Below are positions 28,350-40,722 of a DNA stretch of 64,000 nucleotides, piece by piece. Numbering within the stretch: the stretch's first letter is position 1; every line of letters starts with the position of its first letter. The notes beneath the pieces are model-generated. The model was not told the DNA's origin. It did no database searches and was given only the letters and a program-made list of their open reading frames with translations. The DNA is from Candidatus Raskinella chloraquaticus (lineage in GTDB: Bacteria; Pseudomonadota; Alphaproteobacteria; Rhizobiales; UBA4765), in NCBI GenBank assembly GCA_002365175.1, contig DEZK01000012.1, forward strand, positions 3,330-67,329. The letters are read 5' to 3'. Position numbers and translations under genes: made by a program.

Positions 28350-29171
28350 GTGACCGGGATATCCATCCGTTTCTGGGGCGTTGGCGGCTCGATGCCGGCG
28401 CGCGCTTCCAGGCGCCGCATGTTTGGCGTGCAGACATGCTGTTTTGAAATCCGCGCCGGCCATCAGCGTCTTATCATCGATGCCGGCACCGGCATTGCCG
28501 ATCTCGGCCACAGCCTGGCGGACGATGACGCCGCCGCGCTCGACATTCTGCTCACCCATTGTCATTGGGACCATATCTTCGGCTTGACCGGCTTTTCGCC
28601 CATGTTCGCCAGCGGGCGGAAGATCAATCTGCGCTTTGCCGCCCTGTCGGGCGAAAGTCCTGCGGATGTTCTCGATGCCTTGTTCAAGCCGCCCTATTTT
28701 CCGCTTGCCCCGGGTGATCTGCGCAGCACGATTTCACTGCAGACGATCGCGCCTGCAATCCCCTTCACCCTGGATGCCCTGACGGTGCGCCCCATCGCGC
28801 TCAATCATCCAAACGGGGCCAGCGGATTTCGGATCGACAGCAGCGATGCCGCGATCGCCATCATCACCGACCACGAACACGGCGTGGGGGCAATCGATGA
28901 CGAGATCGTCAAGCTGTGCGCCAATGTCGACCTGCTCATCTATGATGCCATGTGGGACGGCGATGTCGACTATCAGGCGCATCGCGGCTGGGGCCATTCG
29001 ACCTGGCAGGCCGGCCTTGACATCCTGCGGCGGGCAGGGGGCAAGCGGCTCGTCTGCGTCCATCACGATCCACGGCTGAGCGATGAGGACCTGTCCGCGC
29101 GCGAAAGGCGGCTGCAGAGCGAGCATCCGGACAGTCTGTTTGCGCGCGAAGGGATGACGTTGAGGACATGA
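28350..29171 (+). CDS. MBL-fold metallo-hydrolase, a candidate class-II-like cyclic-nucleotide phosphodiesterase
   Basis: GTG start. The metal motif is LLTHCHWDHIFGLTGFSP (HxHxDH). It ends 10 nt upstream of the cNMP-binding ABC-type gene. Confidence 0.75.
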   Translation: MTGISIRFWGVGGSMPARASRRRMFGVQTCCFEIRAGHQRLIIDAGTGIADLGHSLADDDAAALDILLTHCHWDHIFGLTGFSPMFASGRKINLRFAALSGESPADVLDALFKPPYFPLAPGDLRSTISLQTIAPAIPFTLDALTVRPIALNHPNGASGFRIDSSDAAIAIITDHEHGVGAIDDEIVKLCANVDLLIYDAMWDGDVDYQAHRGWGHSTWQAGLDILRRAGGKRLVCVHHDPRLSDEDLSARERRLQSEHPDSLFAREGMTLRT

Positions 29172-29181
29172 GCGCAGCGCG

Positions 29182-32100
29182 ATGAAACCATTGTTTGCCT
29201 ATATCTGGGAGCATTCAAGGCGCGAGCAATTGCTTATCCTGCTCGTGGTGCTTCTGTCGTTTCCGTTCTATTTCTATTCGCTCGATCTGCCGAAATATAT
29301 CGTCTCGGACGCCATTCAGGGCCGCGCCTTTGCGGCTGGAAAAACCGAAGCCGTTCTGTTCCATCTGGCGCTGACCCTGCCAGGTTTTCTGGGTGGCGCC
29401 CATGTCGAGCTTTTCTCCGGCATCAGCCTGTCGCGGCTGCCTTATCTCTTTGCCTTGAGCGCGCTCTTCCTGCTGCTTGTCGTTATCAACGGCGTGTTCA
29501 AATATATCATCAATATGCGCAAGGGGGCGCTCGGCGAGCGTCTGCTGCAATATCTGCGCTTTGATCTTTTTTCGCTCCTGCTGCGCTTCTCGCCCGAGGC
29601 TCTGCGCAACGTCAAGGCGTCGGAAGCCGCCACCATCATCAAGGACGAGGTCGAACCCATCGGTGGCTTTGTCGGCGATGCCTTCATTCAACCCGTCTTC
29701 CTCGGTGGTCAGGCGCTGACGGCTCTCACCTTCATCCTCCTGCAAAGCCCGATTCTTGGATTTCTGGCCGGGCTGATTGTCTTTGTTCAGGCAGCCGTCA
29801 TCCCGCGCTTGCGCCGCGAGCAGATACGGCTCGGCAAGGAGCGCCAATTGCGCTCACGCGCCCTGGCCGGGCGTATCGGCGAAGTGGTGGACGGCATCAG
29901 TGAGGTCGGCAATCACGGTACCAGCGCGTTTGAGCGCCAGCGCATCGGCGGCATGCTCGAACAACTCTTCACCATCCGCTACCGGCTCTACGGCCGCAAA
30001 TTCGCAGTCAAATTTGCCAATAATTTGCTGGCCCAGATGACGCCCTTCCTCTTTTACACGCTGGGTGGCGTCGCTGCCCTGCGGGGCGAGATCGATATTG
30101 GTCAGCTGGTCGCTGTCATTGCCGCCTATCGCGAATTGCCGCCACCCGTGAAAGAACTCATCGACTGGGACCAGCAGCGCCTCGATGTCGATGTCAAATA
30201 CCAGCAGGTCGTGGAACAATTCAGCGCCGGCGTGGCGCCGAGCGTCCCATCCCCCTCAACCGCCGACATGCCCGACCTCATCAACGGCTCGATCGTCATC
30301 CAGGGCCTGAAGGTGATGAGCGCAAGTGACGACGTTCTGGTCGATGGCATCAATCTTACTTTGCCGCTTGGCAAGCACGTCGTGCTGGCTGAGCGGGCTG
30401 GCGATGGCGCGCGCACCCTGGCGCAAATCCTTGGCCGCCGCCTCAGCCTGTACACAGGCTCGATCCGCATCAACGGTGCTGATCTGTCAACCCTGCCCGT
30501 CTCGCTCCACGGGCGCCACGTCGCCCACGCCATCCCTGATGCCGCCATCTTCGACGGCAGCATCCGCGACAATCTCATTTACAGTCTGCAGCAGCGGGTC
30601 AACGAGCCCGACATGCATGGTGTTGCGGTGGCGGCGGACTGTGTGGATTATTCACTGGCGGGCGTTGAGGACGCAGCCGGCCTTGATCACGCGATTGGCG
30701 AGGTTCTGCGCGATGTTGGTCTCGACGAGGCGGTCTTCCGCTTTGGTTTGGCCCGCAAGCTTGAGTCCGGTGGCGATGGGCTCGTGGAGCACATGGTGGA
30801 ATTGCGCGGCGATGTGCGCCGTCAACTTGATGAAAGCGGGCTTGCCGCGCTGGTCGAACCCTTCGATGCCGATGCCTACAACGACAATTCGACCATTGGC
30901 GAAAACCTGCTGTTCGGCGTTCCTCTCGGTGAAGCGATGCGTGACACCAACCTCGCCATGTTGCCGTTCACCCGCCAGCTGCTTGATCAATGCGGGTTAA
31001 GCGAAGGCCTGGCGCTGACCGGCCGGCGCATCGCGGTAACGATGGTCGAGATTTTCACCGGCGTCTCGTCCGACCATTTCCTGTTCGAGCAATTCTCCTT
31101 CATTTCGGCCGACGAACTCGACGATTTCCGCGACATGCTGGGCCGCACCGACGGTCCCGTCGCCACGTTCAGCAGCGCCGACCGTGACCGCCTGGTGGCG
31201 CTCGCTTTCCTTTACGTTGAACCGCGGCACCGCCTGGGTCTGCTTGATGCCGCGCTGCGCGACAAGATCCTGTTGGCCCGTCACCAGTTCCGCCGTGGCG
31301 CGCCAAGTGACCTGGCAACCAGCATCGAATTCTACGACAGCGAACGCTATTGCACGGCCGCGCCGCTGCGCGACAACCTGCTCTTTGGACGCATCACCTA
31401 CGGAGCGTCTGGCGCGGCGGAGAAAGTGACAACCGCCATTCGCCAGTTATTGATCAAGCGGGGCTTCGATGTCGCCGTCTTCCGCCTGGGCCTCGAACAG
31501 CCCTGCGGACACGCCGGGCGTCTGCTGTTCCCCGCCCAGCGCAGCGCCATTGCTCTTGCCCGCTGCCTGATGAAACGCCCGGATATTCTGATCATCAACG
31601 AAGGCGTTCTCAACGCCAGCGAACCTGATGGCGCTGCCCTGCTTGAGAGGCTTCGCCGGCGCATGGCGGGCAAGTCCCTGTTTGTCGTCCTGCGTGCCGG
31701 CGACCCGGCAACCGGCTTCGATGCGCGCATCGAGCTTGCCGCGGGCAAAGTCGTCAGTGGCCTTGCTGCCGCCGAACGCGACACGCCCGAACCAGCCGCG
31801 CGCGCCGCCAGTGACAGTGCCGAATTGGGAGCGCTGCAAGCAGTGCCTATGTTCGCTGATGTCGATCTTGCCCGTCTCAAGCTGCTGGCCTTCACCAGCG
31901 AGCGTTTGACCTATCGGGCGGGCGACGTCGTGTTCAGGCAGGGTGATCCATCCGATTCGGCCTATGTTCTGATTTCCGGGAGAGCCGACATCATCATCAA
32001 CACGGCCGACGGCCCGATGACCGTCAACACCGTCAGCCGCGGGGCGATCGTCGGTGAGATCGGTATCATTACCGGTGCGCCCCGTTCCGCAACCATCCGC

Positions 32101-32250
32101 GCGCTTGAGGATATCAGCGTGCTTTGCCTGCGCCAGGATATCTTCCTCAGCCTGATGAGCGAATTCCCTGAAATGTCGCTTGCCGTGACGCGCCTCGTCG
32201 TCCGCCGCCTGCAGGATAACATTGCCACCCTGCAATCACAGCGGCGGTGA
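29182..32250 (+). CDS. ABC-exporter-type membrane protein with a degenerate nucleotide-binding domain and a C-terminal cyclic-nucleotide-binding domain
   Basis: The N-terminal roughly 330 aa is an ABC transmembrane domain. The NBD motifs are altered: AERAGDGART for Walker A, LFPAQRSAIALARCL for LSGGQ, ILIINEG for Walker B. The C-terminal CNB domain reads FRQGDPSDSAYVLISGRADI...GEIGIITGAPRSATIRA. Confidence 0.8.
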   Translation: MKPLFAYIWEHSRREQLLILLVVLLSFPFYFYSLDLPKYIVSDAIQGRAFAAGKTEAVLFHLALTLPGFLGGAHVELFSGISLSRLPYLFALSALFLLLVVINGVFKYIINMRKGALGERLLQYLRFDLFSLLLRFSPEALRNVKASEAATIIKDEVEPIGGFVGDAFIQPVFLGGQALTALTFILLQSPILGFLAGLIVFVQAAVIPRLRREQIRLGKERQLRSRALAGRIGEVVDGISEVGNHGTSAFERQRIGGMLEQLFTIRYRLYGRKFAVKFANNLLAQMTPFLFYTLGGVAALRGEIDIGQLVAVIAAYRELPPPVKELIDWDQQRLDVDVKYQQVVEQFSAGVAPSVPSPSTADMPDLINGSIVIQGLKVMSASDDVLVDGINLTLPLGKHVVLAERAGDGARTLAQILGRRLSLYTGSIRINGADLSTLPVSLHGRHVAHAIPDAAIFDGSIRDNLIYSLQQRVNEPDMHGVAVAADCVDYSLAGVEDAAGLDHAIGEVLRDVGLDEAVFRFGLARKLESGGDGLVEHMVELRGDVRRQLDESGLAALVEPFDADAYNDNSTIGENLLFGVPLGEAMRDTNLAMLPFTRQLLDQCGLSEGLALTGRRIAVTMVEIFTGVSSDHFLFEQFSFISADELDDFRDMLGRTDGPVATFSSADRDRLVALAFLYVEPRHRLGLLDAALRDKILLARHQFRRGAPSDLATSIEFYDSERYCTAAPLRDNLLFGRITYGASGAAEKVTTAIRQLLIKRGFDVAVFRLGLEQPCGHAGRLLFPAQRSAIALARCLMKRPDILIINEGVLNASEPDGAALLERLRRRMAGKSLFVVLRAGDPATGFDARIELAAGKVVSGLAAAERDTPEPAARAASDSAELGALQAVPMFADVDLARLKLLAFTSERLTYRAGDVVFRQGDPSDSAYVLISGRADIIINTADGPMTVNTVSRGAIVGEIGIITGAPRSATIRALEDISVLCLRQDIFLSLMSEFPEMSLAVTRLVVRRLQDNIATLQSQRR

Positions 32251-32263
32251 TCGACGCGCGGCG

Positions 32264-34495
32264 TTACTTGTCGTCCATCGTCGTACTGCCATCCCAATCA
32301 GCAGGTGGTGGCGCAAGCAGCAGGGCGGTAGCCCGCTTGCTATAGACGTCATAAAGCCCGGCAAGCCGCAAAGGTGCTAGCGCGCGCGCCGCGTTCGCCT
32401 TGTCGATGACGGCCTCGAAGCGTCGTTCGCGATAGGCGTCAAGCACCTCGTGATGGGCAAGACGATACGCGGCGAAATCGCCGCGCGCGGCCTCTTCCTC
32501 GCTGCCCATCAGCGTGAAGAGACGCGTTGCCTGCACCTTGCCCTTGAGCCGCACGAGATCGACTTCGATCCACGGCAGGTCAGGCGCGAGATCGTGCGTG
32601 GTCTCCGCCGCCAGCAGATCAACGCCCAGATATTTGGTGGCCCCTTCCAGACGGGAGGCGACGTTGACTTCGTCCCCGATCGCTGAGTAGTCGAACCGCC
32701 GGGTTGACCCGAGATTGCCGACGCAGCACTCGCCCGTGTTCAGTCCGATACCGAAGCGGGCAATCGGGAAATGTCGCCCCTGGGCGCTTGCCTGCGCCTG
32801 CCAGCGCTGGTTCAGTTCCGCCAGCCGGTCGATCATCAAAAGCGCGGTCCGGCCTGCATTGATGGCGTGCTTGTCGTCATCAAGCGGCGCGTTCCAGAAC
32901 GCCATGATGGCGTCCCCCATATATTTGTCGACCGTGCCATTGTGATCGAGGACAAGGTCGGTCATCGGCGTCAGATAATCATTCATGAAGCGCGTCAGTT
33001 CCTGCGCGCTCATGCCTTCGGAGAGCGTGGTGAAGCTGCGCAGATCGCAGAACATGAGGGTGAGCGTGCGGTTCTCTCCGCCAAGGACAAGACGGCTTGG
33101 ATCACCCGCAAGCCGCTCGACGACGGCCGGCGCGACAAAGCGCTCAAAGGCTGAACGCACCTGCCGCTTCTGCGCCTGCTCCTGCCAGTAGAGGCACGAT
33201 AGCCCGGCGAGATAGATGACGCCCCCGGAGGCGCTCGGCACCACCGGGTCAACGAGGATGCCGCCTTGATGAAAAAGGTACCAGCTGCCGCCAACCAGCA
33301 CAGCAACAACGCCAGCCCCGAGAAGGCCAAGGATAATGGCCGGCGTGCGCGGCAGGAACACCATGAAAATGACGCAGGAAAGGATAGCCAGCGCCGCTTC
33401 AGCGCCCAGCGCCCAGTCCGGCCGGCTGAGTTGGCCGCCGGCGATGATGTGCTCGACCAGCTGGGCGTGAACTTCGACACCCGGGATGGTCGCGTCGATA
33501 GGTGTGGTGCGCTGGTCAAGCAGCCCTGCCGCGCTGGAGCCGATGAAGAAAATGCGCCCTTCGATCTCGTCTGGTTTGATCTCGTCGGCGAGGATCTGCC
33601 AGGCCGGCACGAAGCGTCGCGGTTCATGAGCGGAGAACCGCACCCGGACATCGCCGCTTGACCCCGTATCGATCACAAATTGCCCGATCTTGACGGCGTT
33701 GACACCGGTTGCAGCGCCAAAGGCGGTTTCCCCGCTGGCGTTGGATGATTTGACGATGACCGTATCGACGCCCTGCGCCACCCTGAGCGCTTCGGCGGCA
33801 AGTCCAAGAGCTAATTTTCCGCCAACTCCGAGAAGGACCGGCACCCGCCTGATCGTCTGATCGCGATCAGGCAACCAGTTGAGCATGCCGATGCCGCTGG
33901 CCTGCGCCGCGAAGTCGGGCAGTGGCAGAACGGCAGAGGCGAACCGTGGCACGAACTGCGCCGGATCATCGCCCGCCGTTACCCATCCATGCTTTTGCGG
34001 CAAGGTGATCGTGAGCGGCGAGGCGGTGGCAATAGCCCCAAGAACGACGGGCTTGCCGGCGATGGCCGCAGCAAACACCGCATCATTGGTCGGCAGATCA
34101 ACGATATCGCGCGCCACCGCGTCACGTGCAGCCGATGGCGGCAGGAGCGACAATATCTGGTCAGGGCTCGTGCGATCGCCCTCGGCAAGCGCGATGTCGA
34201 AGGCGACCACGGCAGCGCCCATCGCCGACAGCTTGTCGACCAGTTGCGCCATGCGGGTGCGCGGCCAAGGCCACTGGCCGATGCGGGTAAGCGAAGCATC
34301 ATCGATATCGATGATGCGCACCGGGGCGTCCGCATCCCATTGTCGCGGCGACAGGCGCTGGTAGCTGTCGAATACCAGATCGCGCAGCGGCGCGAGGGCG
34401 TGCGGTGCGGCGATCTCGAAAAAGACAATAAGGGCAAAGGGAATGCCGACCGCCAGCCAGTATAATCGGTTCGCGTAGCGCATGCCCGGCTTCAA
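32264..34495 (-). CDS. CHASE2 sensor domain-containing class III adenylate/guanylate cyclase
   Basis: CHASE2 is seen in VRIIDIDDASLTRIGQWPWPRTRMAQLVDKL...AFDIALAE, followed by TM helices. The cyclase core is LTLMFCDLRSFTTLSE...VDKYMGDAIMAFWNAP...GLNTGECCVGNLGS...YSAIGDEVNVASRLE. The TTG start at 34495 overlaps the upstream stop; an ATG at 34483 is an alternative. Confidence 0.9.
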   Translation of the reverse strand: MKPGMRYANRLYWLAVGIPFALIVFFEIAAPHALAPLRDLVFDSYQRLSPRQWDADAPVRIIDIDDASLTRIGQWPWPRTRMAQLVDKLSAMGAAVVAFDIALAEGDRTSPDQILSLLPPSAARDAVARDIVDLPTNDAVFAAAIAGKPVVLGAIATASPLTITLPQKHGWVTAGDDPAQFVPRFASAVLPLPDFAAQASGIGMLNWLPDRDQTIRRVPVLLGVGGKLALGLAAEALRVAQGVDTVIVKSSNASGETAFGAATGVNAVKIGQFVIDTGSSGDVRVRFSAHEPRRFVPAWQILADEIKPDEIEGRIFFIGSSAAGLLDQRTTPIDATIPGVEVHAQLVEHIIAGGQLSRPDWALGAEAALAILSCVIFMVFLPRTPAIILGLLGAGVVAVLVGGSWYLFHQGGILVDPVVPSASGGVIYLAGLSCLYWQEQAQKRQVRSAFERFVAPAVVERLAGDPSRLVLGGENRTLTLMFCDLRSFTTLSEGMSAQELTRFMNDYLTPMTDLVLDHNGTVDKYMGDAIMAFWNAPLDDDKHAINAGRTALLMIDRLAELNQRWQAQASAQGRHFPIARFGIGLNTGECCVGNLGSTRRFDYSAIGDEVNVASRLEGATKYLGVDLLAAETTHDLAPDLPWIEVDLVRLKGKVQATRLFTLMGSEEEAARGDFAAYRLAHHEVLDAYRERRFEAVIDKANAARALAPLRLAGLYDVYSKRATALLLAPPPADWDGSTTMDDK

Positions 34496-35625
34496 GCCCC
34501 TCGTCTGGCGATGTCCGTCTGGCGCAAGGCATCCTTGATCCCGGGTGCGCGCTCGATTACCGCTGCAAGATCACGCTTGGAGAGCGATAACAATTTCGTC
34601 CGGCCCTTTGCATTCACCGTCGCGCTCCGTGGCTCGTCGGTGAGCAGGGCATGTTCACCGAAATAATCACCGCTGTCGAGACGGATCGGTCCCCCTTCGG
34701 TTGCAACCTCGACGCTGCCGCCAAGGATGAAATACATGCGCTCACCCGGTTCGCCACGACGGATGATGACCGCGCCGTCTTCAAATGATTCTGCATTGAG
34801 CTGCTCGGCGATAGCCGCGATGGCGGCGGCCGGCAGGCTCCTGAACAGCGGGACGCGCGCCACCATGTTCCACGTCACCACGAAGCTGCGCTTTGCCAAT
34901 GTCGCGTCAAACGCGGACGCAATGACGCCCATGGGGAGCGCCAGCACGAGAAAGCCGCTGATACTGAGAATGACATAGAGCACTTGCCCGAGGCGGGTAT
35001 CGGGCGTGCTGTCATCGCCGCTGGCACCCGTCACGGTGCTGATCGTCCACCAGATGACACTGGTCAGATGGCCGAATTCCTCTGGCTGACCGGCCCGCTC
35101 AAGCAGGAAAATCGCACTGCCGAAGATCATCCCGATCATGCCAACGATGATGGCGCTGGCAAAGAGGGCTTGGCGACCCAGCATCAGCGCCTGGCCAAGC
35201 GCGCTCAGCATCGGCGAATAACGCACCAGTTTGAGGCAGCGCGGCAGGGCGAGCGCCGTGGCGCGTTCAAGCGAAAGAGAGCCCGTGAGGAAGGCAAGAA
35301 TGCCGGCCAGAATATAAAGATCGAGCAGGGCACCGGCCGATGAGGCATGCATCCATCGCGCCGCGACAGGTCCCATCGCCGCAAAACGGGGATTGTCGGG
35401 TGCCGCCCACAGGCGAAAGCCGTATTCGCTGCCAAGAACGATCAGCATGAGGGTTTCGCTGAAGGGCGGCACCCGGGAGGAAATGCCAAGGTCAGGCTCG
35501 ATTGCCAGAACCAGAATGAGCAGGCTGACGATGATCGAGGCTGCCAGAAAATGATGAAGCCTGCCGCCCCAGGCACCCGCAAGGGCTCCATCCTCCAGCA
35601 ACGTGAAATACTGCGCCCTGGTCAT
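34492..35625 (-). CDS. Cyclic-nucleotide-gated ion-channel homolog (MloK1-like: 6-TM ion-transport domain plus C-terminal CNB domain)
   Basis: The S4-like segment is LPRCLKLVRYSPML. The pore region WWTISTVTGASGDDSTPDT lacks a TxGYG filter. The CNB domain reads GEPGERMYFILGGSVEV...FGEHALLTDEPRSATVNA. The ATG at 35625 is preferred over the TTG at 35658. Confidence 0.85.
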   Translation of the reverse strand: MTRAQYFTLLEDGALAGAWGGRLHHFLAASIIVSLLILVLAIEPDLGISSRVPPFSETLMLIVLGSEYGFRLWAAPDNPRFAAMGPVAARWMHASSAGALLDLYILAGILAFLTGSLSLERATALALPRCLKLVRYSPMLSALGQALMLGRQALFASAIIVGMIGMIFGSAIFLLERAGQPEEFGHLTSVIWWTISTVTGASGDDSTPDTRLGQVLYVILSISGFLVLALPMGVIASAFDATLAKRSFVVTWNMVARVPLFRSLPAAAIAAIAEQLNAESFEDGAVIIRRGEPGERMYFILGGSVEVATEGGPIRLDSGDYFGEHALLTDEPRSATVNAKGRTKLLSLSKRDLAAVIERAPGIKDALRQTDIARRGA

Positions 35626-35688: not shown

Positions 35689-38133
35689 CTAGCGCCGCGC
35701 CGCAAAGATGCCGGCGGCGTTGTAAACCCCCGGCCCGCTTGGCGGCGTGCCGGTGATGGTAAATTGTCCGCCCTGTTCAAGCGGTGCGGTGCCAGCCCCG
35801 GTATTGGGGCCGAAGAACGAGCCCTGGAGCGATCCGCTGGCAGGGACAGGACTTCCACTCGTGGCGAAACTGCCGTTGAAATTGGCCCGGTTGGCTGAGT
35901 TCAGCGTACTCGTCCCGGCATAATTGCGCTGGTCGAAGGTGAAGGCGAGACTGCCCGTTCCCTGGCCGAAATTGACGGTATGATTGAAGGTGCCGCCCGC
36001 GACGTAATTGGTGCCCGTATTGGTCACAGGCGCGCTGGTACTGCCTGGTCCGAATTGCACGTTGCCGATGATGTGGCCGTTATAGGTAGCACTGCCGGTC
36101 GTCGGGATAAGCGAGCGATCAGACAATTGTCCGGCGACCCACGTCAGAAGATGTCCGCGCTCCTGATCATTGCCGCCACCAGCATTGTCGCGGACCGCGC
36201 GAGTTGACCAGAAGCCCCATTTGGTGAATTCGCACTGGCAAGGCGTGATGTCGGTCGCGGCGATGACAGCCTGTGCCGCTGCCGGATTGGTGCCGGTGAT
36301 CGTATCCCAGCTGGTCAATCCCGATTGAATGTTTCGATAGGTGCCACTGCCGGTGGAACTGATGTAAGGGGCCGGCGAATCGGTTTGGGGGGCCGTTGTG
36401 TTTGGATCGCGGACCGTGCGATCACGAAGGGCAAAGGTATTTGTGTCGATATAGGTGCTGCGCGCTGCCTGTGTCGTGTTGAGATTGCCAAATTGATAGG
36501 TGCCGTTCACCAACCGAGAGCCAGCCGTACGGCTGGCCAGTTGAATATCGGCCGAGGCGCGCGATGTGCCGCCATCTAAAACGAGCGCAACATCGCTGCC
36601 ATCTCCGTTTCGTCCCGTCACAGTCACAAACTGCGTGGCGATGCGATTGCCCGAGGCATCAAATGTTCCCGTCTCCAGGATTCCGCCCGCATAGCCGGCG
36701 AGCGACAGATTTGGTCGGTTTGCTCCAAGGCTGGCGGGAACCGAGGTCGAAGCAACTGATTGAGTGAAGGTATAATTTTGTCCATTGCCAGGTATGGTAC
36801 CACCGAACTGGGAGGCAACATCGGCAACGGGCTGGTTGGCGCGATTGTAATCGTTTTGATCAATGGTCAAAGATACGGGAATGCGGCTGCCATCGCTCGC
36901 TAATTGCACGCTTCCTGGAACAGACGAGATAGCTGAAACCGCGAAGGCTGCTCGTTGTGTTGCTGATTGCCGCGAAGACGCTTGAATCCCGCCATTATAG
37001 ATCGTTTCCTGTCCTGCCGTGAAGAACGCTTCGGTCACGACCGAGAACACCGAGGTCTGCGCTGCGCCGCGCCCGGTGATGCCAAAGCCGACCTGCAGGG
37101 TGCGGATGGTTTCGCTGGAGGCTAAATTGTCAGCACCGCCAACTCTGTAACCAAGAAGGGGCGTGGTGGTAACTTGCGTTGGGCCGACAAAAAGCGCGGT
37201 CAGATAAGGGACAGAGGACCCAGCTCCCGCACTCACACTGTAGGCGAGGGCGCGCGGGGCAAGAGAAGCTTGGATGTTTTGAACAAGTGGCGCTGCTGCT
37301 GTCGTCGTCGATGTTACCTGCGTTGACTGGCGGGTGTCGGTGACGCTTTGATTGGTGGAGCCGGTTTGCTGCGCCACCTGATTGGTCGATTGTGTCGTCG
37401 ACAGCACCACATTTGACTGCGAGCGATCGCCTGCCAGCTGCGTGTTGGCTGTGGTGTCGCTGGGGGGCGTGGCGCTGCCGCCTGTTTGTCCTGACTGGCT
37501 CGTCGTCTGGCCGGTTGCGGTTGCCAGCACCTGCGGGGGGGTGCGTGTTGGCTGCGAGGGCGACTGGCCCTGGCCAACGGTTGTCGTATAGCCCTGCACC
37601 ATCGTCACCGTGCCGCCGGCAAGGCCGGTGACGGTCGCAGAGCCAACGATGCTGGACGTGGTCTGCGTCTGGCTCTGCGGGTTGAACGACGTGGTGGCGA
37701 CCGCCCCGCGCAGGCCGATGGTGGCGACCGGTGTCTTGATTTCGGCATTGCCATTATGGCTGATCTGCCCGCCGACGAAGCGCAGCGCCCCCTTGGCAAG
37801 GCCGATGCTCATTTTGCCGTCGCGCTTTGCTGGATCATAGACGTATTCATTGATCACAACATCGCTGTTGGGGCCGATATTGAGCGTCGATTTATCAAGA
37901 AACACCAGCTGCAGCGAGCCTGCGCCTGAGGTGACAAAGCGCTCCTTGAAGATGACCTGACTGCCTAGCGTCACCTGTTTTGTCCCACCGCCCGGCGGCG
38001 TGCTTTGGGTGAGCGGATTGACCGCGCCGGTGGTGCCGACATTCTGTGCCAACCCGTTGCTGGCAAGCGCACACACGCTCGCCCCCATCAGGAGAACGGC
38101 GTGACGGGTTTTAATCATGGATGAGCTTGCCAT
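35689..38133 (-). CDS. Secreted FecR-domain protein with a T/S/Q-rich linker and a C-terminal TbpB-type (Slam-cargo-like) beta-barrel domain
   Basis: The ATG at 38133 has GGGGAAAG upstream. The signal peptide MASSSMIKTRHAVLLMGASVCALASNGLAQ has no canonical lipobox. The FecR region reads GSQVIFKERFVTSGAGSLQLVFLDKSTLNIGPNSDVVI. The C-terminus reads GSATYNGHIIGNV...FNHTVNFGQGTGSLAF...FNGSF...LQGSFFGPNTGAGTAPLEQGGQFTI...AAGIFAARR. Confidence 0.8.
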   Translation of the reverse strand: MASSSMIKTRHAVLLMGASVCALASNGLAQNVGTTGAVNPLTQSTPPGGGTKQVTLGSQVIFKERFVTSGAGSLQLVFLDKSTLNIGPNSDVVINEYVYDPAKRDGKMSIGLAKGALRFVGGQISHNGNAEIKTPVATIGLRGAVATTSFNPQSQTQTTSSIVGSATVTGLAGGTVTMVQGYTTTVGQGQSPSQPTRTPPQVLATATGQTTSQSGQTGGSATPPSDTTANTQLAGDRSQSNVVLSTTQSTNQVAQQTGSTNQSVTDTRQSTQVTSTTTAAAPLVQNIQASLAPRALAYSVSAGAGSSVPYLTALFVGPTQVTTTPLLGYRVGGADNLASSETIRTLQVGFGITGRGAAQTSVFSVVTEAFFTAGQETIYNGGIQASSRQSATQRAAFAVSAISSVPGSVQLASDGSRIPVSLTIDQNDYNRANQPVADVASQFGGTIPGNGQNYTFTQSVASTSVPASLGANRPNLSLAGYAGGILETGTFDASGNRIATQFVTVTGRNGDGSDVALVLDGGTSRASADIQLASRTAGSRLVNGTYQFGNLNTTQAARSTYIDTNTFALRDRTVRDPNTTAPQTDSPAPYISSTGSGTYRNIQSGLTSWDTITGTNPAAAQAVIAATDITPCQCEFTKWGFWSTRAVRDNAGGGNDQERGHLLTWVAGQLSDRSLIPTTGSATYNGHIIGNVQFGPGSTSAPVTNTGTNYVAGGTFNHTVNFGQGTGSLAFTFDQRNYAGTSTLNSANRANFNGSFATSGSPVPASGSLQGSFFGPNTGAGTAPLEQGGQFTITGTPPSGPGVYNAAGIFAARR

Positions 38134-38144
38134 CGTCTTTCCCC

Positions 38145-39525
38145 TCAGAACCGTAACGTCGGACCGACCACCACCGTCCAATTGTGGTAGCGGAAATTGG
38201 GCAGGGTGGAGGCGTTGTTCTGCAACAAGACCTGAGCCGCAAACCCGAGATTTTCAGTAAGCGGCGCATCAAGCGACAGACCGACGCGGAATTCGCGATC
38301 CCGACGGTTGGTCGCCGGATCAATCAGCTGGTTGGGCAGCCCGTATCGTGTCCAGATCTGGCCGACAGTCGGTGTCAATGTCCAGCGCAAGGGGGCATCA
38401 ATAAACGGCGCGCGGAACTCCCACTGAATGCCGATATCATAGGATTGCTGGACAAAAGCATTATAGGCAAAGAGCGAATTCGTCGCGTTATCGGCATAAG
38501 CGATACGACCAAACACCCTGAGCCCGTCGACGACCGGAACGAGAGCCGATAGCGACCCCGTCGACAGCACGCCCGTCTGCTCTCCAGCGACCGGGAATTT
38601 GTTTGAATTCTCAAAGGCGCGACGCCGCGAATCACCCACCGCTTCGAAGCTCACCCAGGGCGTCGGGATGGTGATGGCCGCGCCATAGCCGGTCGCCGTC
38701 TGGTAGCCCGTGCGGCCGAGACTTGTCACATTCACCAGCCCATAGGGGCGCACCGTCACACCGGGAAAAACATCGGGTGCCACATTGATGCGTGGCCCGG
38801 AGGTAATCTCAACCAGACCGATATCGAATTCAGGGTTGCGGTTCTGGCGTGAGATATAGCCCGACACTGTCGTCTCGAGCGTGTCGCCGCGCCCGTTCTC
38901 GATGGTCTGGACATGGCGCACGCCACCGAGGAAAAAACTGTTCCAGTCATTGCGCCGGCCGAATTGCTGATTGAGCACGGCATCAAAGCCAAGCGCTCTG
39001 ACGTTCAGCGATGATGGCCCGGCATTGACGTTGGACTGATAGCGCGCGCCAGACTGGAAATAGCCTGAAAACTGGCTGGGATTATCGCGACGATCGATCT
39101 CCTGGATGAAGGCCTGGGCGCGCGCGCACTTCTTCCGGCACGCCCTCGCCCTCGACCGCGCTGGTGAAGTAGACGCGTGCCTGGCCGTAGGCTTTGAGCT
39201 TGTAATAAAGAACGCCGAGTTCGAGCCGCACGCGCGACAATTTCGGATTGTAGAAGAGCAGGCGTTCAAGCGCGCCAATCGCCGCTTCGTCCTCGTCAAG
39301 CGCGGCGGCCACCTGGGCAAACCTGAACGACGCGTCAAGATCCGACGGGTTTTTCAGCGTGATCAGAAAGAGTTGTTCGTATTGCTCGCGCGATGGCGGG
39401 GCCGTGGCCGTTTGCGCCTGCGCAGAGGATATCGTGGCAACAACGGCGCACAGGCCGGCCACAAGCCAGTTTCGGTGACCGAACCGGCGCCGTCCCCCAC
39501 CCTGCCTGAAATTTGCAATCACCAT
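38145..39525 (-). pseudogene. Slam-like (surface lipoprotein assembly modifier, DUF560-type) outer-membrane protein with a signal peptide, TPR region and beta-barrel, interrupted by a frameshift at a (GC)5 tract
   Basis: The N-terminal frame (track ORF 39082..39621) gives MVIANFRQGGGRRRFGHRNWLVAGLCAVVATISSAQA plus TPR-like helices and stops just after ...VPEEVRAR. The barrel continues in the +1 frame (track ORF 38145..39338) as AQAFIQEIDRRDNPSQFSGYFQSGARYQSN... and ends ...VVVGPTLRF (terminal aromatic). The junction is at 39116-39127. Confidence 0.7.
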
Positions 39526-40116
39526 GACCACCAAAACTCCGGATGAAGCGGATCGACACATTTCAAAACTCTTCGAAACCGTCTCGGCCTGCAAAAAAGA
39601 CCGCAATGGATCGGATCGCATACAAATTTCGTAAATCCATACTCCAATCCGGGGAAATTGCCTCGTTTCTTACGAAATTGTAAACGCCCGGGCAGGCGCG
39701 GAAAAACTGCTGAAATCGTCGTCAACGTCGAAGTGATGAAAAGTTTGAAGAATTTATAACAACTTACGAGCGTAAATTGAGCGCGCAAGAAATGCCACAC
39801 CTATGACGTAACGGAAGATTTGTGCGAATTGTTGCAAAATAAGCACAATGAATCGAGCCTTCGGCGCAACAAAAAGGGCGGCAAATCGCGACCGGAGCCC
39901 GGCTGTTTGGTCAGCCTGGCCGTATCTCAAGCGGCGTGTTGCTTGACAGCGACACCGGCATACCGTGAAGGCGCTAAAGCGCATATTGCTCTTGCGTTGC
40001 CGGCGCGATCTACTAAAAGTGCTTTTTCATGAGCAAAGGATCAGCCGGATCACCGCATTTGGTTTGTCGTCGTGCCAAGGTTCAGGGCCAAAGTTCAGGA
40101 TAGAGATACGCAACCA

Positions 40117-40722
40117 ATGAAAAAGACAGCCTTTGCGGTTCTGTTGATGTGCCAGCTGATGGTCTTTGGGCGCCCAGTTCATGCAGCCGACCTTCTGAAC
40201 ACCACGCCTGCGCCGCCACCGGCGGCGCCAGTCGCGCTATCGCCCTTTTCCGGCTTCGAGGCCCGCTTCGGCGGTATCGCGCATTCCCTGCTGCACCGCG
40301 CCGAGCAGAGCGCCGACATCAATCTCGAAATCCTCAGCCCGCGCTACGGAAACGCTTCCGGCAATCCCTTTCTTGATTTTGTCATTCGCCCGCGCCTCGT
40401 CGCCGGTGGCAACATCAACCTCGACCGTTTCCGCAATCAGGCTTATGCCGGTCTCGTCTGGACCTTCGACTTCAATGATCGTTTTGCCTTTGAACTGGGC
40501 TGGAACGCTCTCGTCCATGACGGGCCGAACAATCCCGGGGTCGGATCAAACCAGCTTGCCCTGGGTTGCAGTCTCCTTTTTCGTGAATCCTTCGCCTTCA
40601 CCTACAAATTTGCCGATAACTGGAAAGTTGTCGCCTCCTTCGATCACGGTTCGAATGCAGGATTCTGCCGGCGCAATGTCGGCATCAACAATGCCGGCGT
40701 AAAGATCGGCTATACGTTCTAG
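40117..40722 (+). CDS. Acyloxyacyl hydrolase / lipid A 3-O-deacylase (PagL-like) outer-membrane protein
   Basis: Signal peptide MKKTAFAVLLMCQLMVFGRPVHA, catalytic-type FDHGSNAG (HxSN) and C-terminal ...GVKIGYTF. Confidence 0.7.
   Translation: MKKTAFAVLLMCQLMVFGRPVHAADLLNTTPAPPPAAPVALSPFSGFEARFGGIAHSLLHRAEQSADINLEILSPRYGNASGNPFLDFVIRPRLVAGGNINLDRFRNQAYAGLVWTFDFNDRFAFELGWNALVHDGPNNPGVGSNQLALGCSLLFRESFAFTYKFADNWKVVASFDHGSNAGFCRRNVGINNAGVKIGYTF

What the first reader, a model, noticed from the sequence alone, without database searches (positions are those of the whole stretch)
35689..39525. Slam-type translocon paired with a FecR-domain cargo carrying a TbpB-like C-terminal barrel, sitting directly upstream of the CHASE2 cyclase
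Seen in sequence: the upstream gene encodes a signal peptide, TPR-like helices and a roughly 330-aa beta-barrel ending in ...PTLRF. The next gene (814 aa) has a signal peptide without a lipobox, an N-terminal FecR-like domain, a T/S/Q-rich low-complexity linker and a beta-rich middle. Its last roughly 170 aa carry the motif series of the TbpB/fHbp-type 8-stranded barrel: ATYNG, TVNFGQGTGSL, FNGSF, GSFFGP..AP.EQGGQF, GIFAARR. Established knowledge: Slam (DUF560) outer-membrane proteins export surface lipoproteins and the non-lipidated hemophore HphA, and they recognise cargo through exactly this kind of C-terminal barrel. Slam and its cargo genes are typically adjacent. Inference: a FecR sensor domain may be displayed at or beyond the outer membrane by a Slam-type pathway, then report to the CHASE2 domain of the co-transcribed cyclase. 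That would be a new function for Slam cargo, which is so far mostly nutrient piracy or immune evasion.
Basis: partly seen in the sequence, partly recalled or inferred. Interest (0 to 1): 0.8.

Follow-up and report, generated by a model that had tools for sequence, protein, structure and literature searches.

The report
Slam-like secretion pair wired to cyclase
A soil-type alphaproteobacterium encodes a divergent Slam/type-11-secretion outer-membrane protein next to a partner that joins a FecR sensor-type domain to a TbpB-like barrel, in one operon with a CHASE2 nucleotide cyclase. This points to an undescribed outer-membrane input route for a sensor domain whose signal is unknown, although in this window the outer-membrane gene is broken by a 2-base frameshift.

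Summary
The 814-aa gene (38133..35689, minus strand) encodes a Sec signal peptide without a lipobox. It then has a FecR-fold domain, a disordered T/S/Q/P linker, a confident beta-rich middle and a C-terminal TbpB/fHbp/NHBA-type barrel. The upstream gene encodes a signal peptide, TPR helices and a predicted 14-strand barrel.

In this window the outer-membrane gene is split by a -2 frameshift in a (GC)5 run, while a 99.96%-identical contig with (GC)6 is intact. A cNMP-gated channel gene also lies between the FecR gene and the CHASE2 cyclase.

The window protein itself does not hit Pfam SlipAM/DUF560. Its barrel is nevertheless homologous (BLASTP 2e-26) to family members that pass the SlipAM threshold, and those members are also followed by FecR–TbpB-barrel genes.

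Across 80 species genomes the outer-membrane gene is followed by a FecR gene in 58 of 75 loci, and a CHASE2 cyclase lies nearby in 26 of 60.

The best reading is a divergent type-11 secretion pair that serves as the outer-membrane arm of a CHASE2 cyclase. Barrel-less TPR + FecR + CHASE2 modules suggest the FecR domain acts in the periplasm rather than outside the cell. I rate it a new variant of a known kind, interest 0.65.

The parts
38145..39525 (-). Gene for the TPR + 14-strand-barrel outer-membrane protein, a divergent Slam/T11SS-type protein. It is interrupted in this window by a -2 frameshift. An alternative upstream ATG lies at 39621.
   Evidence: Two overlapping ORFs in different frames. 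The reconstructed 460-aa protein is 94% identical over 100% of its length to the intact P0001. The AF2 model of P0001 has pLDDT 90.7.
39118..39127 (.). (GC)5 run that holds the frameshift. Relatives have two more bases here, and L095 has (GC)6.
   Evidence: DNA comparison with L001-L004 and with L094/L095. L095 is 99.96% identical over 9.6 kb and encodes an intact 492-aa ORF.
39084..39390 (-). Periplasmic TPR domain of the outer-membrane protein (residues ~46-148). It spans the frameshift.
   Evidence: Pfam TPR_9/16/19 hits. Six to seven helices in the AF2 model. Weak TPR_Slam (PF24575) hits in 46/60 and 31/98 family members.
38148..39077 (-). Predicted 14-strand beta-barrel (residues 151-460), ending in GPTLRF.
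   Evidence: 14 long strands by DSSP on the AF2 model. Best PDB matches are the 14-strand barrels CymA, FadL and OmpG. BLASTP gives 2e-26 and 3e-26 to the SlipAM-positive P0387 and P0383.
35689..38133 (-). Gene for the 814-aa FecR–linker–beta-rich–TbpB-like-barrel protein, the putative T11SS partner or cargo.
   Evidence: P0121 is a 100% identical product in JGI metagenomes.
38014..38043 (-). Mature N-terminus NVGTTGAVNP with invariant G33/A37/V38/N39/P40. AF2 predicts it to be disordered, so it is a candidate linear binding motif.
   Evidence: Invariant columns in the 44-sequence alignment. pLDDT is below 50 for residues 1-60. The motif is also present in FecR-only relatives.
37564..37950 (-). 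FecR-fold domain (residues ~62-190).
   Evidence: Pfam FecR 33.3 bits against a cutoff of 24. Foldseek matches the PupR C-terminal cell-surface signalling domain 6ovk at E 2.2e-6, rmsd 2.7 Å, TM 0.53.
37267..37536 (-). Disordered T/S/Q/P-rich linker (residues ~200-289) with the invariant SQxGQTGG motif.
   Evidence: pLDDT below 50 for residues 214-288. Invariant S212, Q216, G218 and G219.
36253..37266 (-). Beta-rich middle region (residues 290-627). It may be a handle or pedestal, and it has no family assignment.
   Evidence: pLDDT above 90. No Pfam hit. No profile similarity to the C-terminal barrel. It is absent from the ~560-600-aa family members.
35692..36252 (-). C-terminal TbpB/fHbp/NHBA-type barrel domain (residues 628-814), preceded by a conserved CxC-x4-WGFW motif.
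   Evidence: TbpB_B_D 28.4 bits against a cutoff of 26, plus FHBP_C. slam_lipo 1.7e-9. PDB profile hits to NHBA, fHbp, TbpB and LbpB. Eight strands between residues 681 and 813 in the model.
34492..35625 (-). Gene for a cyclic-nucleotide-gated ion channel, lying between the FecR gene and the cyclase.
   Evidence: Pfam Ion_trans plus cNMP_binding. Gene call in L094.
32264..34495 (-). CHASE2 class III adenylate/guanylate cyclase, the last gene of the putative operon.
   Evidence: Pfam CHASE2 5.1e-53 and Guanylate_cyc 7.1e-16. The start lies within 10 nt of the channel stop.
28350..32250 (+). Convergent pair: an MBL-fold hydrolase (28350-29171, a candidate cNMP phosphodiesterase) and an ABC transporter with a C-terminal cNMP-binding domain (29182-32250).
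   Evidence: Pfam hits. Similar companions sit next to the CHASE2 cyclase on an Ensifer plasmid and are reported in Campylobacterota clusters (PMC9239204).

Best explanation
The first two genes of a four-gene minus-strand operon (outer-membrane protein, FecR–TbpB-barrel protein, cNMP-gated channel, CHASE2 cyclase) encode a divergent type-11-secretion (Slam/DUF560-like) protein and its adjacent non-lipidated partner.

**Shown**
- The outer-membrane protein has the Slam architecture and is homologous to proteins that pass the Pfam SlipAM threshold.
- The partner ends in the 8-strand barrel type that marks Slam/T11SS substrates.
- The outer-membrane gene, the FecR gene and the CHASE2 cyclase recur together in many genomes.

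**Inferred**
- The barrel of the outer-membrane protein engages the partner's C-terminal TbpB-like barrel and brings the C-terminal, ligand-binding part to the cell surface.
- The N-terminal FecR domain and its invariant N-terminal peptide make protein contacts in the periplasm, with the TPR domain and with the periplasmic CHASE2 domain.
- These contacts would set cyclase activity.
- The cyclic nucleotide would then act on the co-encoded channel and the cNMP-binding ABC transporter, and would be removed by the neighbouring MBL-fold hydrolase.

In the assembly this window comes from, the outer-membrane gene carries a 2-base deletion. Here the system is either switched off or mis-assembled.
For: **Outer-membrane protein**
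- The AF2 model has pLDDT 90.7, with a signal peptide, TPR helices and 14 long strands.
- SlipAM (PF04575) is hit by 6 of 60 close and 16 of 98 distant family members.
- P0383 scores 34.4 bits and P0387 33.1 bits against a cutoff of 22, and P0387 covers the model end to end.
- The window barrel aligns to both over its full length, at 2e-26 and 3e-26.
- Both SlipAM-positive proteins are followed by FecR genes. Those in L007 also end in the same C-terminal barrel, at 1.7e-32 and 5.1e-30.

**Partner protein**
- FecR passes the Pfam cutoff, and TbpB_B_D passes it on the domain alone.
- slam_lipo gives 1.7e-9.
- PDB profile hits go to four Slam substrates: NHBA, fHbp, TbpB and LbpB.
- Foldseek hits go to TbpB, HphA, hemophilin, LbpB and fHbp, and separately to the PupR signalling domain.

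**Synteny in 80 species genomes**
- A FecR gene is the first downstream gene in 58 of 75 loci.
- FecR plus the barrel is found in 41 of 67.
- A CHASE2 cyclase lies in the flank in 26 of 60.
- Only 4 of 60 have neither.
- The same triad sits on a Paracoccus plasmid in a different order, Rhodobacterales.
- In Nitrobacter the outer-membrane gene sits directly next to the cyclase, and the FecR gene is elsewhere in the genome.

**Periplasmic role for FecR**
- An Ensifer plasmid has a 104-aa TPR-only protein (3e-7 to the TPR part of the outer-membrane protein), a 220-aa FecR-only protein and a CHASE2 cyclase.
- FecR–CHASE2–TPR clusters are noted in Campylobacterota (PMC9239204), and a FecR–CHASE2 kinase operon in Burkholderia (PMC5192318).
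- An outer-membrane barrel protein, NsrA, is required for signal perception by CHASE2 cyclases in S. meliloti (PMC7529298 and PMC13001267).

**Operon**
- All four genes are on the same strand with gaps of 11, 63 and under 10 nt.
Against: - The window protein itself gives no SlipAM hit even at E<=10.
- Most family members carry only TPR annotations.
- PF04575 also picks up PgaA-type polysaccharide porins (PMC8406197), so a SlipAM hit alone does not prove a protein translocon.
- In 10 of 67 loci the FecR partner lacks the TbpB-like barrel and ends in a Gly/Cys-rich or poly-Pro tail. The pairing therefore does not always depend on that barrel.
- In 34 of 60 loci with at least 8 kb of downstream flank, no CHASE2 cyclase lies within the retrieved flank.
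- Nothing here tests localisation, binding or cyclase output.
- The outer-membrane gene is frameshifted in this window.
Confidence: 0.55

Rival explanations
1. This is plain type-11 secretion with no signalling. The whole 814-aa protein, FecR domain included, is exported by the outer-membrane protein and acts outside the cell as an adhesin or a nutrient- or ligand-binding protein. The cyclase is only a neighbour or a regulator of expression.
For: - This is the canonical behaviour of T11SS cargo: an N-terminal effector, a pedestal and a C-terminal barrel, with non-lipidated cargo released (PMC12282271 section 15; bioRxiv 10.1101/2023.03.29.534853).
- A weak NCBIfam hit to the Leptospira surface adhesin Lsa33 (E 0.017) covers the FecR region.
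- 21 of 60 loci have the FecR–barrel gene but no CHASE2 cyclase nearby.
Against: - No TonB-dependent receptor or uptake genes lie near the pair.
- A CHASE2 cyclase lies in the flank of 26 of 60 loci, and the triad also occurs in another order. This is more often than I would expect for a gene family with few copies per genome (my estimate, not measured here).
- Nitrobacter keeps the outer-membrane gene next to the cyclase without the FecR gene.
- Barrel-less TPR + FecR + CHASE2 modules exist.
Confidence: 0.15
2. This is a periplasmic scaffold with no translocation. The barrel only anchors the TPR domain at the outer membrane. The FecR–TbpB-like protein stays soluble in the periplasm, binds a periplasmic ligand through its beta-rich part and docks on TPR and CHASE2.
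For: - Known FecR/PupR domains act in the periplasm (Foldseek hit to 6ovk).
- The protein has no lipobox.
- Minimal modules need no barrel.
- FecR partners without a TbpB-like barrel still pair with the full outer-membrane protein.
Against: - The C-terminal domain belongs to the family that marks Slam/T11SS substrates.
- It sits next to a SlipAM-related barrel, including in loci whose outer-membrane protein passes the Pfam cutoff.
- A conserved 14-strand barrel is more than an anchor needs.
Confidence: 0.15
3. The outer-membrane protein is a TPR-porin of the exopolysaccharide-export type (PgaA, BcsC or PelB-like), and the neighbouring genes are unrelated to it.
For: - Foldseek lists BcsC (7.6e-8) and PelBC (2.3e-7) among the top matches.
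- PF04575 is known to hit PgaA homologues (PMC8406197).
Against: - TM-scores to BcsC and PelBC are low (0.30-0.41), against 0.5-0.69 for the 14-strand barrels CymA and OmpG.
- There are only about three TPR pairs.
- The model has 14 strands, not 16-18.
- No polysaccharide synthase genes are nearby.
- The gene is conserved next to FecR genes.
Confidence: 0.03
4. In this particular organism the module is a decaying pseudogene cluster, and the frameshift is real and fixed.
For: A -2 indel relative to five related contigs splits the ORF.
Against: - The rest of the gene and the three downstream genes are intact.
- The window is 99.96% identical to a contig with an intact gene.
- The indel is one unit of a short GC repeat, a typical site for sequencing, assembly or population variation.
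- Only one assembly shows it.
Confidence: 0.1

Closest known systems
Slam / type 11 secretion system outer-membrane proteins (Neisseria Slam1/2, HsmA, NilB, HrpB; Pfam SlipAM PF04575 plus TPR_Slam PF24575)
   Same: - Sec signal peptide, N-terminal periplasmic TPR domain and predicted 14-strand C-terminal barrel (definition in PMC5449769).
- The gene sits immediately upstream of a gene whose product ends in a TbpB-type barrel.
- The barrel is homologous to SlipAM-positive proteins.
   Different: - The window protein and most of its roughly 2000-cluster family fall below the Pfam SlipAM threshold.
- The hosts are free-living Hyphomicrobiales and Rhodobacterales rather than animal-associated beta- and gammaproteobacteria.
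- These genera do not appear in the published DUF560 network tables that are held.
- The neighbours are cNMP-signalling genes, not TonB-dependent receptors.
Non-lipidated T11SS cargo (HphA, hemophilin) and Slam lipoproteins (TbpB, LbpB, fHbp, NHBA)
   Same: - C-terminal 8-strand barrel of the TbpB_B_D / lipoprotein-C type, running to the extreme C-terminus.
- Signal peptidase I type signal peptide, as in HphA.
- The general layout of effector, disordered region, beta-rich pedestal and barrel.
   Different: - The N-terminal effector is a FecR-fold domain, which is not among the roughly ten cargo architectures catalogued.
- There is no haem- or transferrin-binding handle that I could recognise.
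- The middle region shows no profile similarity to the barrel, so a TbpB-like two-lobe build is not shown.
FecR/PupR anti-sigma factors of cell-surface signalling (C-terminal periplasmic signalling domain)
   Same: - Pfam FecR domain above the cutoff.
- Fold match to the PupR periplasmic domain, rmsd 2.7 Å.
- In both cases the domain is expected to relay information from an outer-membrane protein to an inner-membrane signalling protein.
   Different: - There is no cytoplasmic anti-sigma domain, no transmembrane helix, no ECF sigma factor and no TonB-dependent transducer nearby.
- The protein is a secreted Sec substrate.
S. meliloti NsrA–CyaK/CyaD1/CyaD2 pathway, and the smc02177 FecR-domain gene next to cyaD1
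   Same: - An outer-membrane beta-barrel protein encoded next to a CHASE2 cyclase is needed for signal perception (PMC7529298 and PMC13001267).
- A FecR-domain gene lies beside a CHASE2 cyclase.
   Different: - NsrA is a single protein of about 1200 aa whose barrel spans residues 600-1200.
- My FecR-domain search did not retrieve it, and I could not read its primary paper.
- Homology to the present pair is untested.
CHASE2–FecR–TPR gene clusters (Campylobacterota cAMP cluster; Burkholderia LysM-FecR + CHASE2 histidine kinase operon)
   Same: Recurrent adjacency of a CHASE2 sensor protein with a FecR-domain protein and a TPR protein, plus a phosphodiesterase (PMC9239204; PMC5192318). The window has the same cast.
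   Different: Those reports do not identify the TPR protein as Slam/T11SS-like, or the FecR protein as carrying a TbpB-type barrel. No paper in the searched library holds CHASE2 together with Slam, T11SS or DUF560 terms.

Membership tests
Slam / T11SS outer-membrane protein (DUF560, SlipAM) | Match to Pfam SlipAM PF04575 at or above the gathering score (22 bits) | tested here: not met
   The reconstructed window protein has no hit at E<=10. Homologues P0383 (34.4 bits) and P0387 (33.1 bits, model positions 11-288 of 288) pass. They align to the window barrel at 3e-26 and 2e-26. Membership of the wider homologous family is therefore supported, but membership of the Pfam-defined set is not.
Slam / T11SS outer-membrane protein (DUF560, SlipAM) | N-terminal periplasmic TPR domain after a Sec signal peptide | tested here: met
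   The signal peptide ends in AQAQ. TPR Pfam hits. Six to seven helices at residues 46-148 in the AF2 model. Sub-threshold TPR_Slam hits in 46/60 and 31/98 relatives.
Slam / T11SS outer-membrane protein (DUF560, SlipAM) | C-terminal 14-strand outer-membrane barrel | tested here: met
   14 long strands between residues 151 and 459 by DSSP on a pLDDT-90.7 model, and a terminal Phe. Best PDB matches are 14-strand barrels. This is a prediction only.
Slam / T11SS outer-membrane protein (DUF560, SlipAM) | Adjacent gene encodes a Sec-dependent protein with a C-terminal TbpB-type barrel | tested here: met
   True in the window, in 41 of 67 species loci, and in the SlipAM-positive locus L007.
Slam / T11SS outer-membrane protein (DUF560, SlipAM) | Necessary and sufficient for surface exposure or secretion of the neighbouring protein | not testable with these tools
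   This needs reconstitution in E. coli or a mutant in the native host.
Slam / T11SS outer-membrane protein (DUF560, SlipAM) | Fold superposes on Slam1 or HsmA models better than on other barrels | not testable with these tools
T11SS cargo (TbpB_B_D / lipoprotein-C barrel proteins) | C-terminal 8-strand barrel matching TbpB_B_D or FHBP_C | tested here: met
   TbpB_B_D 28.4 bits against a cutoff of 26 on the domain, and 23.7 on the whole protein. slam_lipo 1.7e-9, but only 38 bits against a cutoff of 80. PDB profile hits to NHBA, fHbp, TbpB and LbpB. Foldseek hits. Eight strands at residues 681-813.
T11SS cargo (TbpB_B_D / lipoprotein-C barrel proteins) | Sec signal peptide, lipidated or not | tested here: met
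   A signal peptidase I type site, AQ|N, that is conserved across the family, and no lipobox. This was read from the sequence; no predictor was run.
TbpB proper (bilobed transferrin-binding lipoprotein) | Lipobox and two handle-barrel lobes | tested here: not met
   No lipobox. hhalign finds no similarity between the middle region and the C-terminal barrel. The whole-TbpB Foldseek alignments have TM 0.17-0.25 and rmsd of about 19 Å.
FecR-type anti-sigma factor | FecR periplasmic domain | tested here: met
   Pfam FecR 33.3 bits against a cutoff of 24. Fold match to PupR and BDI_1681.
FecR-type anti-sigma factor | N-terminal cytoplasmic anti-sigma domain, a transmembrane helix, and ECF sigma and TonB-dependent transducer partners | tested here: not met
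   The protein starts with a cleavable signal peptide followed directly by the FecR domain. No sigma-70 or TonB-dependent receptor genes lie in the neighbourhood.
PgaA/BcsC/PelB-type polysaccharide porin | Long TPR array, a 16-18-strand barrel and linked polysaccharide synthase genes | tested here: not met
   A short TPR region and 14 strands. Low TM-scores to BcsC and PelBC. No synthase genes nearby.

The most novel reading that the evidence does not exclude
The pair forms a signalling device that spans the cell envelope. The Slam-like barrel does not release its partner. It holds it across the outer membrane, with the TbpB-like ligand-binding part outside, the long disordered linker running through or along the barrel, and the FecR domain inside.

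Ligand binding at the surface would then be passed through TPR–FecR contacts to the periplasmic CHASE2 domain. CHASE2 would be a sensor of a partner protein rather than of a small molecule.

Variants whose FecR protein ends in a poly-proline or Gly/Cys-rich tail would be simpler tethers of the same kind.
Probability: 0.2. Interest if true: 0.85.

Novelty: new variant of a known kind. Interest (0 to 1): 0.65.

Why it matters
- **CHASE2.** CHASE2 is a widespread extracytoplasmic sensor domain of cyclases, kinases and diguanylate cyclases, and its signal is not known (PMC5192318).
- **Type 11 secretion.** It has been characterised only in animal-associated bacteria, for nutrient capture, adhesion and immune evasion. 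The role of the many environmental family members is open (PMC8406197 and PMC12282271).
- **What this module offers.** A conserved module joining a Slam-like outer-membrane protein, a FecR–TbpB-barrel protein and a CHASE2 cyclase gives both questions a concrete, testable candidate.
  - The outer-membrane family gave tblastn matches at 517 places in the species-representative genome collection.
  - The triad also occurs in culturable genera such as Rhodopseudomonas and Paracoccus.
- **A wider family than Pfam detects.** Pfam's SlipAM model misses most of a large branch of the family: about 2000 cluster representatives match the barrel profile.

Tried and rejected
- **Fold comparison with Slam.**
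  - The PDB holds no Slam chain, so Foldseek only showed generic 14-strand barrels and TPR-porins.
- **Direct Pfam and NCBIfam tests of the outer-membrane protein.** Only TPR hits came back. Homology to SlipAM had to be shown through family members.
- **Locus search with the barrel-only alignment.** It failed for lack of a conserved stretch. The full-length alignment worked.
- **Two-lobe TbpB reading of residues 290-814.**
  - I reject it as unproven.
  - hhalign finds nothing between the middle region and the barrel.
  - Pfam finds nothing in the middle region.
- **NsrA comparison.**
  - The primary paper is not held.
  - A FecR-domain tblastn of plasmids did not retrieve pSymB nsrA.
  - I did not pursue its sequence.
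- **Homologue search with the C-terminal domain alone.** It returned only three fragments.
- **Promoter and terminator scan of the operon.** Counts were near those of shuffled sequence (3 promoter-like sites against 2.3±1.5; 12 terminator-like sites against 7.8±2.8), and no site marks an operon boundary.
- **Phase-variation reading of the GC run.**
  - It is not supported.
  - The tract has only 5-6 units.
  - (GC)>=5 runs are no more frequent than chance: 2 observed against 4.5 expected.
- **Literature.**
  - The T11SS network supplements do not mention Rhodopseudomonas, Nitrobacter, Bradyrhizobium, Afipia, Methylobacterium or Paracoccus.
  - FecR appears in the cargo paper's supplement only as a neighbourhood domain, listed alongside sigma-70 domains.

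Full report
**What is in the window**

On the minus strand, four genes follow one another with gaps of 11, 63 and under 10 nt:

- an outer-membrane protein gene (39525..38145);
- an 814-aa gene (38133..35689);
- a cyclic-nucleotide-gated ion channel (35625..34492; Pfam Ion_trans plus cNMP_binding);
- a CHASE2 class III nucleotide cyclase (34495..32264; CHASE2 5.1e-53, Guanylate_cyc 7.1e-16).

Two further genes converge on the cyclase from the plus strand. One is an MBL-fold hydrolase (28350-29171). The other is an ABC transporter with a C-terminal cNMP-binding domain (29182-32250). The finding therefore sits inside a small cyclic-nucleotide signalling island.

That is off by one gene, because the channel lies between them.

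**The frameshift**

The outer-membrane gene is not one ORF here.

- The signal peptide and TPR part are in one frame (ORF 39621..39082). The barrel is in another (ORF 39338..38145).
- The switch lies in GTGCGCGCGCGCCCAGG. Adding one GC unit gives a continuous 460-aa protein.
- That protein is 94% identical, over 100% of its length, to the intact P0001.
- Four related contigs (92.6% DNA identity) have two more bases at this spot.
- The window is identical to JGI contig Ga0119947_100002, which carries (GC)5.
- A contig from another sample is 99.96% identical over 9.6 kb. It has (GC)6 and an intact 492-aa ORF.
- The tract is short, and such tracts are not enriched in the window: 2 observed against 4.5 expected.

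I read this as strain variation or an assembly error. I do not read it as a designed switch or as long-term decay.

**The outer-membrane protein**

- *Model.* AlphaFold2 was run on P0001 with 60 homologues and gave pLDDT 90.7.
  - It shows a signal peptide and six to seven TPR-type helices (residues 46-148).
  - It shows 14 long strands (151-459), ending in a terminal Phe.
- *Fold search.* Foldseek against the PDB returns 14-strand barrels first.
  - CymA, FadL and OmpG give target TM-scores up to 0.69.
  - The TPR-porins BcsC and PelBC score lower.
- *Direct sequence test.* The window protein does not hit Pfam SlipAM (PF04575) even at E<=10.
- *Family members.*
  - 6 of 60 close relatives and 16 of 98 distant relatives hit SlipAM at E<=1 and E<=0.01 respectively.
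  - 46 of 60 and 31 of 98 give sub-threshold hits to TPR_Slam.
- *Bridging proteins.*
  - P0383 (34.4 bits) and P0387 (33.1 bits, covering positions 11-288 of the 288-position model) exceed the cutoff of 22 bits.
  - Both match my barrel profile at about 1e-66.
  - Both align to the window barrel over its full length, at 3e-26 and 2e-26.
- *Conclusion.* The barrel belongs to the same homologous family as Pfam-defined SlipAM proteins, on a branch that the Pfam model mostly misses.
- *Size of the family.* About 2000 representatives of 50%-identity clusters match the profile at E<=0.001.

**The 814-aa protein**

- *N-terminus.* It starts with a signal peptidase I type signal peptide and has no lipobox.
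- *FecR domain.* Residues 62-190 pass the Pfam FecR cutoff (33.3 against 24 bits). They superpose on the periplasmic signalling domain of the anti-sigma regulator PupR (E 2.2e-6, rmsd 2.7 Å).
- *Linker.* Residues 214-288 are disordered.
- *Middle region.* Residues 290-814 are modelled with pLDDT mostly above 90. Residues 290-627 have no Pfam hit and no profile similarity to the barrel. I therefore do not claim a TbpB-like two-lobe build.
- *C-terminal barrel.* The last ~187 residues are TbpB-like by four independent routes.
  - Pfam TbpB_B_D gives 28.4 bits on the domain against a cutoff of 26.
  - NCBIfam 'Slam-dependent surface lipoprotein' gives 1.7e-9, partial and below its own cutoff.
  - A profile of 24 family members hits NHBA, fHbp, TbpB and LbpB in the PDB, at 1.2e-5 to 5e-3, aligned to the very C-terminus.
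  - Foldseek hits TbpB, HphA, hemophilin, LbpB and fHbp.
  - All of these are Slam/T11SS substrates.

**Conservation**

A scan of one genome per species gave tblastn matches to the outer-membrane protein at 517 places. The best 80 are all Hyphomicrobiales-type genomes: Rhodopseudomonas, Nitrobacter, Bradyrhizobium, Afipia, Microvirga, Methylocella and Beijerinckiaceae.

I searched the six-frame translations of these loci with profiles built here.

| Feature near the outer-membrane gene | Loci |
|---|---|
| FecR gene is the first downstream gene | 58 of 75 |
| FecR gene also has the C-terminal barrel | 41 of 67 |
| FecR gene lacks the barrel | 10 of 67 |
| CHASE2 cyclase within the flank | 26 of 60 |
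| CHASE2 cyclase downstream on the same strand | 23 of 60 |
| Neither a FecR gene nor a cyclase | 4 of 60 |

Four other arrangements are informative.

- The locus of the SlipAM-positive P0383 has two ~1030-aa genes, each with FecR at the start and the same barrel at the end (1.7e-32 and 5.1e-30).
- A Paracoccus plasmid (Rhodobacterales) carries the outer-membrane gene, a FecR–barrel gene and a CHASE2 cyclase in a row, next to a cNMP-binding patatin gene.
- Nitrobacter genomes keep the outer-membrane gene next to the cyclase. In N. hamburgensis the FecR–barrel gene is elsewhere in the genome.
- Afipia-type loci pair the outer-membrane gene with a ~320-aa FecR protein that ends in a Gly/Cys-rich tail. 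In another lineage the tail is a long poly-proline run.

**How it most likely works**

*Shown:*
- the Slam-type architecture and the homology to SlipAM-positive proteins;
- the substrate-type barrel on the partner;
- the three-way genomic linkage.

*Inferred:*
- The outer-membrane protein handles the partner through its C-terminal barrel, as Slam and T11SS proteins do.
- The system feeds the CHASE2 cyclase.

An Ensifer plasmid has a 104-aa TPR-only protein, a 220-aa FecR-only protein and a CHASE2 cyclase. The TPR-only protein matches the TPR part of the outer-membrane protein at 3e-7.

This minimal set has no barrel, so its members must meet in the periplasm. The structural match to PupR points the same way.

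The barrel and the TbpB-like part then look like an add-on that extends a periplasmic TPR–FecR–CHASE2 core to the cell surface.

Two further features are candidate contact sites, but this is speculation:
- the invariant peptide VGTxGAVNP at the mature N-terminus, in a region AF2 leaves disordered;
- the invariant SQxGQTGG motif in the linker.

The canonical T11SS outcome, export of the whole protein, remains possible and is my main rival.

**Comparison with the literature**

- Slam is defined by a TPR N-domain and a 14-strand DUF560 barrel, with substrate genes adjacent (PMC5449769).
- Non-lipidated substrates are established (bioRxiv 10.1101/2023.03.29.534853).
- The latest cargo catalogue lists about ten architectures, and none has a FecR effector (PMC12282271). 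FecR appears in its tables only as a neighbourhood domain, listed alongside sigma-70 domains.
- FecR–CHASE2–TPR adjacency has been noted in Campylobacterota (PMC9239204), and a LysM-FecR + CHASE2 histidine kinase operon in Burkholderia (PMC5192318).
- In S. meliloti an outer-membrane barrel protein, NsrA, is required for CHASE2 cyclases to perceive a plant signal.
- The FecR-domain gene smc02177, next to cyaD1, was not required for that perception.
- No paper in the searched library holds CHASE2 together with Slam, T11SS or DUF560 terms.

What appears to be new:
- recognising the TPR protein of these clusters as Slam-like;
- recognising the FecR protein as carrying a Slam-substrate barrel.

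**Verdict**

- Observation: partly confirmed.
- Interpretation: partly supported.
- Novelty: a new variant of a known kind, namely type 11 secretion coupled to second-messenger signalling.
- Interest: 0.65. There is no experimental test, the Slam assignment rests on remote homology and a predicted structure, and the local copy is frameshifted.

Noticed in passing
window 39118-39127: The outer-membrane gene differs from a 99.96%-identical contig of another metagenome sample by one GC unit, (GC)5 here against (GC)6 there. That single unit decides whether the gene is intact. It could be population variation or an assembly error.
   Followed up: partly
window 28350-35625: A compact cyclic-nucleotide island surrounds the finding. 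It holds an MBL-fold hydrolase (a possible phosphodiesterase), an ABC transporter with a cNMP-binding domain, a CHASE2 cyclase and a cNMP-gated ion channel. The channel accompanies the module in only 4 of 81 loci (the 80 genome loci plus the window).
   Followed up: partly
window 38014-38043 (residues 31-40 of the 814-aa protein): The mature N-terminus VGTxGAVNP is invariant in 44 homologues and is also present in FecR-only relatives. AlphaFold nevertheless leaves it disordered, so it looks like a short binding motif.
   Followed up: no
window 37476-37499 (residues ~212-219): An invariant SQxGQTGG motif sits in the otherwise variable, disordered linker.
   Followed up: no
window 36232-36240 (residues 632-634): A nearly invariant CxC pair (FCQCxYTRWGFW) lies just before the TbpB-like barrel. 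These are the only cysteines of the mature protein, and the periplasmic CHASE2 domain has none.
   Followed up: no
L092 (Ensifer sp. PDNC004 plasmid NZ_CP070354) 735-10833: A barrel-less version of the module: a 104-aa TPR protein, a 220-aa FecR protein, a CHASE2 cyclase and an MBL-fold hydrolase. They sit next to NHLP-type bacteriocin export ABC transporters and a cNMP-binding protein.
   Followed up: partly
L009 9366-10340 and L011 9369-10430: Short FecR partners of the outer-membrane protein end in low-complexity tails instead of a TbpB-like barrel. The Afipia-type tail is GGGGGYxC repeats. The other is a run of more than 40 prolines that resembles the periplasm-spanning spacer of TonB.
   Followed up: partly
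L093 5886-7853 (Paracoccus aminophilus pAMI5): The FecR–barrel protein of this plasmid has a linker made of about 25 PTGPTG/PTDPTG repeats. This resembles the proline-threonine repeat cargo classes described for Sphingomonas and Psychrobacter T11SS cargo.
   Followed up: no
L007 9405-15721: A metagenome locus with a Pfam-positive SlipAM gene carries two tandem ~1030-aa FecR–barrel paralogues. FHA, PP2C phosphatase and multihaem cytochrome genes lie upstream, and a very large TPR protein lies downstream.
   Followed up: no
window 40072-40722: A PagL-type lipid A 3-O-deacylase gene is transcribed divergently from the outer-membrane gene. It is conserved at that position in the closest relatives (L001-L004, L094, L095).
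   Followed up: no
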